A DNA stretch of 64,000 nucleotides from Eledone cirrhosa. Taxonomy: Eukaryota. Both the position numbers and the translations under genes were made by a program. The DNA is taken from positions 260,710,001 through 260,774,000 of the forward strand of contig OZ024740.1 in NCBI GenBank assembly GCA_964016885.1. Direction: 5' to 3'. Below, piece by piece: positions 3,649 through 64,000 of the stretch (position 1 is its first letter; each line of letters starts with the position of its first letter). The notes beneath the pieces are model-generated. The model made no database searches, was not told the origin of the DNA, and saw only the letters and a list, made by a program, of their open reading frames with translations.

Positions 3649-4287
3649 CTACCTTAAGACATTAAGTGGTCATATTCTACCTTAAGACATTAAGTGGTCA
3701 TATTCTACCTTAAGACATTAAAGTGGCCATATTCTACCTTAAGACATTAAAGTGGTCATATTCTACCTTAAGACATTAAGTGGTCATATTCTACCTTAAG
3801 ACATTAAGTGGTCATATTCTACCTTAAGACATTAAGTGGTCATATTCTACCTTATGTTATAAAGTGGCCATATTCTACCTTAAGACATTAAGTGGTCATA
3901 TTCTACCTTAAGACATTAAGTGGTCATATTCTACCTTAAGACATTAAGTGGTCATATTCTACCTTATGTTATAAAGTGGCCATATTCTACCTTAAGACAT
4001 TAAAGTGGTCATATTCTACCTTAAGACATTAAGTGGTCATATTCTACCTTAAGACATTAAGTGGTCATATTCTACCTTAAGACATTAAGTGGTCATATTC
4101 TACCTTAAGACATTAAGTAGTCATATTCTACCTTAAGACATTAAGTGGTCATATTCTACCTTAAGACATTAAATGGTCATATTCTACCTTAAGACATTAA
4201 GTGGTCATATTCTACCTTAAGACATTAAGTGGTCATATTCTACCTTAAGACATTAAGTGGTCATATTCTACCTTATGCTATAAAGTG
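3649..4287. repeat. 28-bp intronic minisatellite (ATTCTACCTTAAGACATTAAGTGGTCAT)n, about 22-23 copies
   Basis: Period of 28 read directly. Starts about 25 nt after the splice donor. A variant unit ctaccttatg(t/c)tataaagtg recurs three times. Confidence 0.97.
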
Positions 4288-4641
4288 TTTTTACCCAGTA
4301 TATTTCAACATGATATTTCAGGGTTAACACATCGATCATTCATTTTTGTTTTGAACCGTCTTCATTTTAGATTTGAAAAGATGTTAATAACCCTGAAATA
4401 TCATGCTAAAATACACTGTATTTTGTTTTATTTGTCATCCTTTGTCCTTTATATATTTCTACTACATTGTGCCAGCTTTTTCAAACTTATCAGTCGTTTA
4501 TTACATATCTTACGATGCCTTGTTTTAACTATATATATATATATGTATGTATGTATGTATGTATGTATGTATGTATGTATGTATGTGTATGTATATATAT
4601 ATATATATATATATATATATATATATATATATATATATAAA

Positions 4642-4868
4642 GGGTAAAGACCCCCGTCGGTCACGAATGACCATGGGATTTGCACCTAGAAAGTTTTCCT
4701 CCGAGGCACAAGTCCAGGCAAGGTTGTTTGTGGAAGACCGATAGTCACCCATGCATACCAGTCTCCCCTCTCCACGCCACCGATGAGGTCCAATGGCCGA
4801 TACAGCTTGGCACCAGTGACGTCGCAACTCATTTCTACAGCTGAGTAAACTGGAGCAACATGAAATAT
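4642..4868 (-). mobile_element. 5'-truncated tRNA-derived SINE (family A body and tail)
   Basis: Reverse complement contains tatttcatgttgctccagtttactcagctgtagaaatgag, shared with copies at ~8890, 14100 and 41010. Flanked by (TA)n. Confidence 0.8.
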
Positions 4869-4989
4869 ATATATGTGTGTGTGTGTGTGTATGTATATAT
4901 ATATATATGTATGTATATATATATGTATGTATATATATATATATGTGGGTGTGTGTGTATTATATATATATAATAGTATAGTTAATATG

Positions 4990-59400: not shown

Positions 59401-59895
59401 AAGAAGTGATAACATAGGCCGCTGAATTATGATTAGTCCAATTATGATTGGGGGCGGGGAGGGATCTGCGTTAGTTAGCGAGAAGGTTATAAAATAAAAT
59501 CCTCGAATTTTGGCCATAATTGAACGAGCATATAACAGTAATAAGAGAAGAATTATGGGCTTTTAAAATACAAGATTATTTTGAACAATCAGACAGAATT
59601 ATCGAATATCATTGAAAAAGAAAAGATTGGATTCTGGACGATATGATACAGATAGATGAATGGACCGGGGAACACGGAGAGACGAGAAAGAAATAGGATT
59701 TGTACATTACATTACACAGAAGAGCGAGCGAGCGATGTAGCCAAGAATAAGGGGTCGACAAATTCTGAGTTTCGTACCTCGCAACAGGTTTATTTTATAT
59801 TTGGAGAGATATACACATAAAAATATATGTATATATATATATACACACACACATATATATATATATGTATATATATATAAGTATATATATATATA

Positions 59896-61188
59896 CAGAG
59901 TGCAGACGATATTTGTTCGCAAGATTACTGTCTAGGAAAAGATAACACAGTAGTTTTATTTTTTAAGATATATATATCAAACTTGGGTCAGTTTGTCTTC
60001 ATGACTTGTTATTTCGATCTCACTCGATACACCCGCCATTGGCTTTGAAGGTGGCCTCGGAACCGGCTACAGGCCTTCGTCACTGTCCCCCAACTTAGGC
60101 CCCTAAAGGCACTCGTGATCCTGGCCTTCAGATCGTCTTTCGTATTGCAACTAGATCTGTTGGTGTCTCGTTCCACTGCGCCCCACACAAAGAAGTTGAG
60201 GGGTTGCAGTCAGGCGAGCTTGGAGGACAGATGTCAGGTGAAGTGTGGTCGACGAAGTTCTCTGACAGCCAGGCTTGGGGCTTTCGGCTGGTATGGCAGG
60301 GCGCTGAGTCTTGCTGCCACACGTACGGCCTACCTGCAGCTACCTGGTCGATCCAGGGCTTTACTACCTCGCCTAGAACGCAGATGTAGCCATCGGTGTT
60401 CAGCTTGAGGCCCTCAGGGAAGAAGTGAGGTGGTATGACGTCACCTTGACTGATGATGACAACTAAGACCAATGTTATCGCTGGAAACTTTGTCTGCATG
60501 ACTCTGGGCACATCTTTGGATGAGACAGCGAGCCACCTGTTGTTCTGGGAGTTGATCTTCTGGTCTTGGCAGAAATTTTTCTCATCGGAGAAAAATCACA
60601 GCATGTCTGGCTCCAGTGGGTGTTTCAACATTTTGATCAGCTTCTTTGAGTGCTTCAGTCGATTTTCTTGCATTGCCTTTGACAGAAATTGTCCTTTCCT
60701 CATCTTGTATGAAACGTAGCGAATGTCTTCATGTACCACCAGCCTAATGAGCTTTCCATCCACGCCTTTCTCCCTTGCAATGGCATGCCTCGATGTGCTA
60801 GGTTCATTGTTAATATCCTGAACTTCAGCAACGAACTCGGGCGTTCTGAAGGCGTCAGATCGTCGATCATGTGTTTTCCTCTCTGTTTTTGCTTCGTAGT
60901 TGAATCCTGAATCTTCCAATTCCTTTCTGACCTTTTCCACCATTCTCCTGCATACACAGAGAAAGTCTGAAATTTCCTTATTTGTCCTCCCCGTGCGAAT
61001 TCCAAGAAGAACTCCGTGTCTCTTCCACAAATTTTGAGGTTCAAAATTATTCGTAATCAAATATTCTGAAAATAAATAATGGAAATATAGTCACTGTTTT
61101 TATGAAGACAAGAGTGACAACGGAAGTAAAATTTTTTTTACATAAAATTATCAGTTGAAAATTGCGAACAAATATCGTCCACACTCTG
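59896..61188 (-). mobile_element. Complete Tc1/mariner-superfamily transposon of DD37D (maT/Bmmar1-like) type, inactivated, with 27-bp TIRs and TA TSD
   Basis: TIRs cagagtgcagacgatatttgttcgcaa / ttgcgaacaaatatcgtccacactctg, flanked by TA. FFSDEKNF and WQQDSAPCH...PPSSPDCNP, with 37 residues to the third catalytic position (frameshifted, D changed to N). Confidence 0.93.
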
Positions 61189-64000
61189 TATATATAGATA
61201 CACATATATATATATATAGATAGCTATATATGTATATATATACATATATATATACATATATATATATATACATATATATATACATACATATATATATATA
61301 TATATACATACATATATATATATATACATACATATATATATATATACATACATACATATATATATATATACATACATACATATATATATATATATACATA
61401 CATACATATATATATATATATACATACATACATATATATATATACATACATACATATATATATATACATACATACATATATATATATACATACATACATA
61501 CATATATATATATATATACATACATACATATATATATATATACATACATACATATATATACATATATATATATACATATACACATACATATATATATATA
61601 TACATACATATATATACATACATATATATATACATACATATATATATACATACATATATATATACATACATATATATACATACATATATATACATACATA
61701 TATATATACATACATATATATACATATATATATATATACATATATATATATACATATATATATATACATACATATATATATATACATACATATATATATA
61801 TACATACATACAAAATACACCCCGTCCCACCACCACCACCCTCACCCCATCCACACCACCCCGTTCTATGTAAAGTTATGTTGGTGCCGCGCCGAGGCCG
61901 AAACAAATGAGATCGTGTAGGTGTCACGACAAAAAAACACACAGTCCACGCTGTAATGTGGCCGTGTAGGCAACACGGTAAAAACCTCCCAGACCCACAC
62001 TGTAAATGTGGTTGGTGTTAGGAAGGGCATCCAACTGTAGAAAACCTGCCAGACAGTCCTATGCGAGCAAGACAATCACTCTTGCCTCAAGTGGGACTAC
62101 CCCCGTCCAAACCCATGCAAGCGTGGAACACGGACGTTAAACGTTGATTATGATGATGATACATATATATACATATATATATATATATATACATACATAT
62201 ATATACATACATATATATACATACATATATATACATACATATATATACATACATATATATACATACATATATATACATACATATATATATATACATATAT
62301 ATATATATATACATATATATATATATATACATATATATATATATATACATATATATATATATATACATACATACATACATATATATATATATATACATAT
62401 ATATATATATATACATATATATATATATATACATACATACATACATATATATATATATACATACATATATATATATATACATACATATATATATATATAC
62501 ATACATACATATATATATACATACATACATATATATATACATACATATATATATATATATACATACATATATATATATATACATACATATATATATATAT
62601 ACATACATATATATATATACATACATATATATATATACATACATACATATATATATATATATACATACATATATATATATACATACATATATATATATAT
62701 ATACATACATATATATATATATATATACATATATATATATATATATACATATATATATATATACATACATATATATATATATACATACATATATATATAC
62801 ATACATATATATATATATACATACATATATATATACATACATATATATATATATATATATATATACATACATATATATATATACATACATATATATATAT
62901 ACATACATATATATATATACATACATATATATATATACATACATATATATATATATATATACATACATATATATATATATACATATTATATACGTACATA
63001 TATATATATATATACATATATATATATATACGATGATTTCTAATGAATGAAACAGTTCTAGTCCTGTAGAATCTCATCTATATTAAAACTGTTATACTCT
63101 GCTATGTATTGAGTACCTTACTTACTGTGGTTACCTCCGATTCAACCCAAAATAGTATACATACATATATATATATATATACATATATATACATACATAT
63201 ATATATACATACATATATATATATACATATATATATATACATATATATATATACATACATATATATACATATATATATATACATATATATATATATACAT
63301 ATATATATATACATATATATATATACATATATATATATACATATATATATATACATACATATATATACATACATATATATATATACATATATATATACAT
63401 ACATATATATATATACATATATATATATACATATCATCATCATCAGGTTTAGCGTCCGTGTTCCACGCTTGCATGGGTTTGGACGGGGGTTTTCCCACTT
63501 GAGGCAAGAGTGGTTGTCTTGCTCGCATAGGACTGTCTGGCGGGTTTTCTACAGTTGGATGCCCTTCCTAACACCAACCACATTTACACTGTGGGGCTGG
63601 GAGGTTTTTACCGTGTTGCCTACACGGCCACATTACAGCGTGGACTGTATACATATATATATATATATATATACATATATATACATATATACATACATAT
63701 ATACATACATATATATACATATACATATATATATATACATATACATATATATATATATATACATACATATATATATATACATATACATATATATATATAT
63801 ATACATACATATATACATACATATATACATATATATATATACATACATATATACATATATATATATACATACATATATACATATATATATATATATACAT
63901 ACATATATACATATACATACATATATACATATATATATATATATACATATATATATATACATACATATATACATATATATATATATATACATACATATAT
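61189..64000. repeat. Very long (TA)n/(CATA)n microsatellite field with embedded SINE tails (61850-62160 on +, 63433-63650 on -)
   Basis: Read directly. The embedded pieces are inverted copies of each other (ggaagggcatccaactgtagaaaacc...). Confidence 0.95.

What the first reader, a model, noticed from the sequence alone, without database searches (positions are those of the whole stretch)
4286..63150. Dispersed hammerhead-like mini-elements, often at the centre of fold-back palindromes (Penelope/retrozyme-like system)
Seen in sequence: the pattern C(T/C)GANGA - short stem II - GAAA - minimal stem III recurs in several different sequence contexts. Sites: 4373-4402(+), 5129-5158(-) with 5183-5212(+), 9911-9933(+), 16468-16508(-; CCGAAGA a GAGAT att ATCTC GAAA), 20065-20090(-) with 20388-20415(+), 32671-32698(+), 37815-37853(-), 46564-46598(-) and 63031-63070(+). 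In several cases the element begins at, or the palindrome centres just upstream of, the core, and continues about 100 nt (with AATAAA in some copies). Established: Penelope-like retroelements carry minimal type I hammerheads in their pLTRs and insert with inverted 5'-truncated segments; retrozymes are non-autonomous hammerhead elements. Inference: these apparent MITEs may be ribozyme-bearing retro-insertions mobilised by the Penelope RT/GIY-YIG machinery, three relics of which lie in this window. Most copies carry mutated cores and lack a clear stem I.
Basis: partly seen in the sequence, partly recalled or inferred. Interest (0 to 1): 0.75.

Follow-up and report, generated by a model that had tools for sequence, protein, structure and literature searches.

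The report
Penelope leader stubs carrying hammerheads
Ten of the eleven sites are short, often mirror-image end pieces of six abundant Penelope-type repeat families with hammerhead RNA folds; in the best-sampled family the pieces begin at one spot, likely the RNA's start rather than the predicted ribozyme cut, and both mirror halves were likely copied from one RNA molecule.

Summary
The hammerhead-like sites are real but partly misread. Ten of 11 belong to six dispersed families ending in (TA)n; 9911 has one weak relative and no helix II. Long copies of A, D, E and F lead into Penelope-like RT/GIY-YIG ORFs (D, E Hydra-type), G weakly; C is an ORF-less ~485-nt head-to-tail unit (retrozyme-like). 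In 90 position-ordered family-E copies (6,736 exact hits), 43 start in an 11-nt window 30 nt behind a TATA box, none exactly at the cut site; 58 carry an adjacent head-to-head arm; arms share sequence variants in 34 of 34; the tail-less arm is longer in 23 of 57, which simple fold-back cannot give. Best reading: Penelope protein primes uncut RNA at two start sites, from both target ends, and runs off the RNA's 5' start. Elements are of a known kind; the mechanism is inferred, with no RNA data. This scan noted the same reading before, here and in other genomes.

The parts
4289..4330 (-). Family A short inverted arm (old copy; abuts a 56-bp tandem array)
4344..4544 (+). Family A pLTR stub with decayed hammerhead at 4373, ends in (TA)n
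5002..5159 (-). Family A left arm of head-to-head pair; hammerhead fold at 5129-5158
5160..5339 (+). Family A right arm; hammerhead fold at ~5179-5215 (4-bp stem I, palindromic stem III, core has A at position 8 in 17 of 23 copies and G in none)
   Evidence: upstream RT/GIY-YIG in long copies
9911..9973 (+). Site B: CTGATGA..GAAA without helix II; possibly an old relic, not confirmed
16343..16559 (-). Family F pLTR stub (copies 95-99% identical), ends in (TA)n
   Evidence: 1,901 exact 31-mer hits
16471..16505 (-). Family F complete minimal type I hammerhead (3-bp stem I, bulged A, 5-bp helix II, palindromic stem III; position 4 C or T)
16553..16576 (+). Short inverted stub at the 5' junction of the F copy
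19881..20166 (-). Family C left arm of head-to-head pair
19994..20093 (-). Family C hammerhead with 71-nt helix II insert (left arm)
20204..20588 (+). Family C right arm; part of an ORF-less ~480-492-nt unit seen head-to-tail elsewhere
20384..20483 (+). Family C hammerhead: stem I 20384-88, core 20389-95, helix II 20396-466, GAAA 20467-70, predicted cut after 20478
32662..32753 (+). Family D (Hydra-type) stub: only the 3' part of the long helix II, GAAA 32683-86, predicted cut after 32694; core 5' half absent; ends in (TA)n
32773..33968 (+). 5'-truncated, frameshifted Penelope-like RT/GIY-YIG relic, a different family from D
35011..36076 (-). Broken Hydra-type Penelope-like ORF relic
37801..37853 (-). 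Family E tail-less arm, starts at the core CTGATGA, ends in (TA)n
37853..37963 (+). Family E tail-bearing arm of the head-to-head pair
46487..46644 (-). Family G stub from its fixed 5' start; canonical minimal hammerhead at 46564-46602 with G12 lost by CpG-type change
55654..56250 (-). Hydra-type GIY-YIG relic (CxCx5C linker)
63032..63154 (+). Family E solo tail-bearing stub inside a (TA)n/(TACA)n tract, starts within the core
   Evidence: 6,736 exact 31-mer hits

Best explanation
The sites are short pLTR stubs of several Penelope-like retrotransposon families inserted in (TA)n, and they likely arise when the element's protein primes reverse transcription at its two start sites just downstream of the uncut hammerhead and runs off the 5' start of the RNA. 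Shown: family membership, hammerhead folds, upstream RT/GIY-YIG ORFs for A, D, E, F, two fixed 3' ends (internal site and tail end), strictly head-to-head pairs, tail on one arm, clustered 5' ends. Inferred: (1) a pLTR promoter starts the RNA at or shortly before stem I (E: TATA 30 nt before an initiator-like site at the first base of stem I); (2) the GIY-YIG domain cuts both strands of a (TA)n target and each end primes a cDNA, one at the internal site, one at the tail end, on the same RNA; (3) the two cDNA ends are joined head to head by 1-3-nt microhomology or a few added bases; (4) stubs lose the upstream promoter and are dead on arrival. The hammerhead is likely a passenger in this step. 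Family C is likely a non-autonomous, retrozyme-like parasite of the same machinery.
For: ORF links: F long copies run into RT (RVT_1 E 7.7e-16) and GIY-YIG, with a pLTR-ORF-pLTR copy in L290; A long copies match that protein at 40-54% directly upstream in 7 of 24 loci; E and D long copies L287, L288 hold ORFs with DKT, YRDD and (E) CxCx5C motifs like published Hydra-1_Obim; G one of 30 copies, E 2e-4. In L288 and L290 the tail runs on into the ORF's 5' end, as for the RT start sites of PAc (PMC11167929). E, first 90 of 6,736 hits by position, anchored at the cut site: 43 of 90 5' ends at -46..-36, 6.75% per nt against 0.6 below and 0.25 beyond -63; inverted arms 44 of 58, 11.2% per nt. TATAAAT begins at -75, 30 nt before A-45, intact in 5 of 6 long copies. 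G: 26 of 30 copies share nothing upstream of one fixed start ~110 nt before the core; D: 8 of 19 at-risk ends at -120..-96, upstream of stem I, so the pile-up is not tied to the ribozyme fold. Inverted copy upstream in 18, 15, 13 of 30 (E, D, F), downstream in 0 of 30 each. Loop variants agree between arms in 34 of 34 (0.44 expected if independent); tail-less arm longer by 3 nt or more in 23 of 57, tail arm in 16. (TA)4 within 130 nt downstream in 87 of 90.
Against: No RNA start, cap or cleavage data were obtained. In E the same spot is also a possible 3' splice site and the 5' strand of stem I, and four junctions carry extra bases that fit cDNA snapping back on stem I, so stalling or snap-back could contribute. 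The extra base before arms ending at -44 is G in 6, T in 8, C in 2, so a cap signature is not clear (7 of 7 G at -45 fits cap or snap-back). F shows only a weak pile-up (10 of 27 at -100..-40) and 13 of 30 long copies; no TATA box was found for A, D, F, and the G candidate holds in 2 of 4 long copies. A few ends fit the cut site: F L328 (1 of 30), E L233/L234 (one duplicated event) and one inverted arm. Arm concordance could partly come from later gene conversion inside palindromes. The short inverted stubs at window 16553 and 4289 do not reach a priming site and look like local fold-backs.
Confidence: 0.68

Rival explanations
1. Ordinary 5'-truncated 3' ends of full-length Penelope RNAs; the pile-up comes from RT stalling or cDNA snapping back where it meets the 5' strand of stem I or the U-rich run before it, not from a transcription start.
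For: 5' truncation is the standard description (PMC8557442, PMC8969392); 23 of 90 E copies extend past -63; four E junctions carry bases complementary to the stem I extension.
Against: G's fixed start is ~110 nt from the core and D's cluster lies 10-30 nt upstream of stem I; TATA spacing of exactly 30 nt in E; the RT has already unzipped stem I when it reaches that strand (inference).
Confidence: 0.2
2. All families are retrozymes: self-cleaved, possibly circular RNA monomers copied by Penelope RT, with the ribozyme defining the ends.
For: Family C has no ORF within 1.5 kb of 60 loci, repeats at 479-492 nt and shows tail-to-head joints in 13 of 27 distinct head-bearing copies; a few ends sit at the cut.
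Against: A, D, E, F run into ORFs; stubs include sequence on both sides of the cut; 0 of 90 E forward arms start exactly at it; D and A carry core changes (A6 to T; G8 to A) predicted to cripple cleavage (PMC3088659, PMC11167929). Holds at about even odds for C alone.
Confidence: 0.07
3. The palindromes form by self-priming (fold-back) on a single strand, possibly an antisense template, as proposed for rotifer Penelopes.
For: Arms share variants in 34 of 34; proposed in PMC3846280; two window stubs look like local fold-backs.
Against: The tail-less arm reaches further 5' than the tail arm in 23 of 57, and in D some inverted arms hold only tail sequence that the other arm lacks: neither can be copied from the partner arm; arms end at the same base in only 5 of 58 (61).
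Confidence: 0.04
4. DNA-transposon MITEs whose terminal inverted repeats mimic hammerheads by chance.
For: Palindromic shape only.
Against: Variable centres, unequal arms, one-sided tail, many solo arms, retroelement ORFs upstream.
Confidence: 0.01

Closest known systems
Endonuclease-bearing Penelope-like elements with pLTR, inverted 5'-truncated copy and one-sided tail (PMC8557442, PMC3846280, PMC2377424)
   Same: RT plus C-terminal GIY-YIG, hammerhead in the pLTR, head-to-head inverted copy, tail on one arm, promoter elements in the pLTR, no clear target-site duplication in microsatellites.
   Different: Here most copies are 60-250-nt stubs with clustered 5' ends; tails are 45-110 nt rather than 30-40; arm geometry argues against the published self-priming explanation.
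Hydra clade, including Hydra-1_Obim (PMC8557442 section 11, Files S1, S2, protein alignment)
   Same: D and E ORFs have DKT, RWR/RWK (D), YRDD and CxCx5C (E) and target (TA)n; E's U-U start of helix II resembles many listed Hydra hammerheads.
   Different: Listed Hydra hammerheads have short helix II; D and its sister family have ~60 nt. E has a ~3.6-kb microsatellite-rich 3' region and is a different family from Hydra-1_Obim by its hammerhead.
Minimal PLE hammerheads (Cervera and de la Pena 2014, PMC4209133)
   Same: Bulged base after A9, palindromic or absent loop 3, mostly solo motifs, opposite-strand pairs 100-700 bp apart (A, F, G, C, D).
   Different: Helix II of 60-71 nt (C, D); family-wide changes at positions 4, 6 and 8.
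PAc (Poseidon) in vitro mechanism (Frangieh et al. 2024, PMC11167929)
   Same: Two RT start sites bounding the tail, both target strands cut and extended, AT-rich targets, uncut RNA as substrate.
   Different: That work does not treat 5' ends, solo stubs or inverted arms in the parts read.
Animal non-LTR retrozymes (PMC7229834; bioRxiv 10.64898/2026.07.22.740005)
   Same: Family C: non-coding, one type I hammerhead per unit, head-to-tail joints, Penelope-type ends.
   Different: Unit ~485 nt (larger than the 150-400 nt passages seen), at most about two units per locus in my sample, long helix II, no RNA evidence.

Membership tests
EN+ Penelope-like element (families A, D, E, F) | Single ORF with PLE-type RT and C-terminal GIY-YIG upstream of the pLTR | tested here: met
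   (F RVT_1 7.7e-16; E GIY-YIG 0.008, below cut-off; motifs read directly)
EN+ Penelope-like element (families A, D, E, F) | pLTR in partial tandem or with inverted 5'-truncated copy | tested here: met
   L290 direct pLTRs, L287 and L288 inverted 5' piece; A pairs
EN+ Penelope-like element (families A, D, E, F) | One-sided 3' tail | tested here: met
   D, E, F; A shows two 3' ends less clearly
EN+ Penelope-like element (family G) | Linked RT/GIY-YIG ORF | tested here: inconclusive
   decayed RT upstream in 1 of 30 copies, E 2e-4
Hydra clade (D, E) | DKT, RWK-like motif, CxCx5C linker, no CCHH, (TA)n target | tested here: met
   motifs read in L287/L288 (47) against the published description and alignment; E's N-terminus and D's EN were not recovered
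Hydra clade (D, E) | Placement in an RT phylogeny | not tested
   no tree built
Type I hammerhead | Stems I, II, III around CUGANGA / GAAA / NUH | tested here: met
   C, E, F, G and D-sister; 94.6% of cells paired in 36 D/D-sister copies, only 2 two-sided changes
Type I hammerhead | Canonical core in families A and D | tested here: not met
   A: position 8 is A, no G among 23 (84); D: position 6 is T in all 19 aligned D copies
Type I hammerhead | Self-cleavage | not testable with these tools
   needs in vitro assay
Non-LTR retrozyme (family C) | Non-coding unit with one hammerhead, head-to-tail repeats | tested here: met
   479-492-nt period, 13 distinct tail-to-head joints, no linked ORF (68, 71, 84)
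Non-LTR retrozyme (family C) | Two or more consecutive units each with a complete hammerhead | tested here: inconclusive
   L358, L365, L371 hold parts of two hammerheads; no long array among 60 loci
Non-LTR retrozyme (family C) | Expressed linear and circular monomer RNA | not tested
   no RNA search made for C
DNA MITE | Fixed terminal inverted repeats, fixed length, target-site duplication | tested here: not met
   variable centres and arm lengths, solo arms, one-sided tail

The most novel reading that the evidence does not exclude
Most solo and palindromic Penelope hammerhead stubs in animal genomes are complete run-off copies of the RNA's 5' leader, made twice from one uncut RNA by a dimeric RT-endonuclease working from both target ends; this explains inverted pLTRs, the one-sided tail and solo pLTRs in one step, lets promoters be mapped from DNA alone, and shows that ribozyme cleavage is dispensable, since a young family (D, 1,639 exact hits) spreads with a long-helix hammerhead whose core is altered.
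Probability: 0.55. Interest if true: 0.7.

Novelty: new variant of a known kind. Interest (0 to 1): 0.48.

Why it matters
How Penelope-like elements make their inverted repeats and what their hammerheads do are open questions in the papers read (PMC8557442, PMC3846280, PMC11167929). The stub geometry gives countable, testable predictions: a capped RNA start at a named base, one RNA per palindrome, no need for cleavage. It also warns that such palindromes are easily misfiled as MITEs and that hammerhead descriptors with short helix II miss whole families.

Tried and rejected
Rfam scan: no hammerhead among the 150 listed matches, which are AT-repeat noise. The repeat finder was swamped by microsatellites. 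My first reading of D as a fixed G8C core (98 of first 100 hits C) was wrong: sister families showed the true core upstream. First-pass hit lists are biased by the query, so 5' ends were counted only on position-ordered pattern hits. A spliced first exon before E's stem I was looked for and not found. A TATA box for G was dropped (2 of 4). Site 9911 could not be tied to a family. Minimum-energy folds do not give the hammerhead conformation for most sites, as expected for weak stem III; not used as evidence. No RNA holder listed, so no reads were laid. Lunse et al. 2017 on PLE hammerhead variants is not held and may describe similar variants. bioRxiv supplements were not seen.
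Full report
Setting. The window is 36% GC and rich in (TA)n; its genome has 3.0 Gb. 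Its Penelope proteins resemble a published cephalopod Hydra element; the host group is an inference. Positions below are relative to the predicted hammerhead cut (0 = first base after it).

Observation. All 11 stretches exist. The loose pattern is about twofold enriched (17 vs 8.2 +/- 2.7, 40 resamples) and a full type I descriptor finds 3 vs 0.28 +/- 0.5. Genome searches place ten sites in six families: A (588 first-look candidates), C (1,063), D (961), E (1,697 and 339), F (273), G (2,730); each search scored only 40. Exact patterns give 6,736 (E tail arm), 556 and 1,639 (D), 1,901 (F) hits with 0 in reversed controls. Site 9911 has 2 hits including itself and is unconfirmed.

Hammerhead anatomy. 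G is a canonical minimal type I motif; G12 is present in 9 of 24 copies and mostly lost by CpG-type change. F is complete with C or T at position 4 (12 and 11 of 30). E has a 6-bp stem I, a U-U start of helix II (a natural variant, PMC3088659 passages), a 4-bp stem III and the canonical core in 59 of 65 copies that reach it. C has a 71-nt helix II insert; the conserved GAAA is the distant one (27 of 35 distinct copies CCAGAAA). For D, a sister family (1,265 hits) showed the real core ~85 nt upstream of the cut, with a ~60-nt helix II; on 36 of 39 extracted copies (three with indels or truncation left out) 94.6% of cells pair, with two-sided changes at only 2 of 19 pairs, i.e. few independent events. 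D itself has T at position 6 in 19 of 19 aligned copies; A has A at position 8 (17 of 23 exact, no G). Changes at A6 lower activity and single G8 changes abolish it (PMC3088659 passages; PMC11167929). The Hydra rows of the published table have short helix II; two spike-moss entries have ~35-nt loops.

What the families are. Long F copies lead through ~550 nt into an RT plus GIY-YIG ORF, and L290 is pLTR-ORF-pLTR. A matches that protein directly upstream in 7 of 24 loci. E (L287) and D (L288) lead, across kilobases of microsatellite or minisatellite, into Hydra-type ORFs. G shows a decayed RT in 1 of 30 copies. C shows no linked ORF; its tail joins its head, period 479-492 nt, in 13 of 27 distinct head-bearing copies from 60 loci. 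The window's three relics are of the same order but were not shown to be parents; the relic beside D is shared with 1 of 29 other D loci, in inverted position.

Geometry. [quoted passage not shown] Inverted copies lie upstream in 18, 15 and 13 of 30 loci (E, D, F) and downstream in none. For E I took the first 90 of 6,736 hits by position (one pair, L233/L234, is a duplicate). Forward 5' ends: 43 of 90 at -46..-36, 17 between -35 and -1, 7 at -62..-47, 23 beyond; none at 0. Adjacent inverted arms: 58 of 90, of which 44 end at -46..-36 (16 at -44) and 57 begin at +9..+28. Long copies carry TATAAAT starting at -75 and CCAGATT around A-45, which fits the initiator consensus YYANWYY (recalled, not from a call). 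G starts at one fixed site in 26 of 30 copies (sample selected on that start motif, so it shows absence of upstream extension, not the share of all copies; 24 hammerhead-selected hits mostly begin there too). D clusters at -120..-96 (8 of 19 at risk); F is weak. Arms agree in their loop variant in 34 of 34 scorable pairs; the tail-less arm is longer in 23 of 57, the tail arm in 16, within 2 nt in 18. Junctions have 1-4-nt overlaps in 27 of 58 and added bases in 25.

Mechanism. Shown: the counts above. Inferred: transcription from the pLTR starts near stem I; the protein cuts (TA)n on both strands, primes at both start sites on one uncut RNA, runs off the 5' end, and the two cDNAs join head to head. 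Results against: possible splice site and snap-back at the same E position, unclear cap signature, rare cut-site ends (F L328; E L233/234, L276), weak clustering in F, two local fold-backs in the window, possible arm-to-arm conversion, and no RNA data.

Known versus new. pLTR hammerheads, solo motifs, opposite-strand pairs, inverted copies, tails, (TA)n targeting, TATA/Inr in pLTRs and retrozymes as PLE derivatives are all in print. What I read: PMC4209133 parts 1-2 of 4; PMC11167929 parts 1-2 of 4; PMC2377424 parts 1 and 3 of 4; bioRxiv 10.64898/2026.07.22.740005 parts 1 and 3 of 5; PMC8557442 passages, section 11, supplement hits and part 2 of 59; PMC3846280 passages and Discussion; passages of PMC6765202 (plus half of section 11), PMC10085705, PMC3088659, PMC7229834, PMC8969392. 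In these and in searches I saw no statement that stubs are run-off copies of the leader; PMC3846280 proposes self-priming and deletion instead. Subscription papers, including Lunse et al. 2017, were not available. My reading was noted before I looked at the scan's earlier notes, which give the same readings for this and other genomes; they are not independent support.

Verdict. Real, mostly known kind; new variants in helix II and core, and a testable mechanistic reading. Interest 0.48.

Noticed in passing
window 1-2076: Tandem array with a 25/50-bp period, 93-95% identical, running off the window's start.
   Followed up: no
window 3626-4287: 56-bp (19-nt subunit) tandem array that directly follows a 371-codon Pro/Glu-rich open frame (2542-3657, no Pfam hit) and abuts the family A arm.
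   Followed up: no
   Followed up: no
window 24417-24989, 20717-20892, 45886-46028, 42770-42971, 51299-51375: Another dispersed repeat with inverted arms, five or more copies in the window.
   Followed up: no
window 44553-45701 (-): 382-codon open frame starting with a RING-like Cys pattern; no Pfam hit. Possibly a host gene exon.
   Followed up: partly
window 21807-22778, 60128-61090, 28910-29329, 56304-59043: Mariner/Tc1-type, hAT and LINE (RTE-like, recalled label) relics.
   Followed up: partly
L415-L444: Sister family of D (1,265 exact hits) with a canonical-looking core and the same long helix II; not present in the window.
   Followed up: partly
L287:4900-8580: Family E carries ~3.6 kb of microsatellite-rich sequence between ORF and pLTR; family D carries an ~80-bp minisatellite there.
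   Followed up: partly
tails of D, E and a further family in L007, L078: Shared short motif ACTCT and, in E and the further family, ATTGAGTAC near the internal 3' end; may mark the RT start site.
   Followed up: no
L007, L124, L184, L193, L293: Stubs of different Penelope families stack next to each other in the same (TA)n tracts.
   Followed up: no
window ~55560-55600 (-): Possible decayed hammerhead just after the stop of the 55654 relic; not tested.
   Followed up: no
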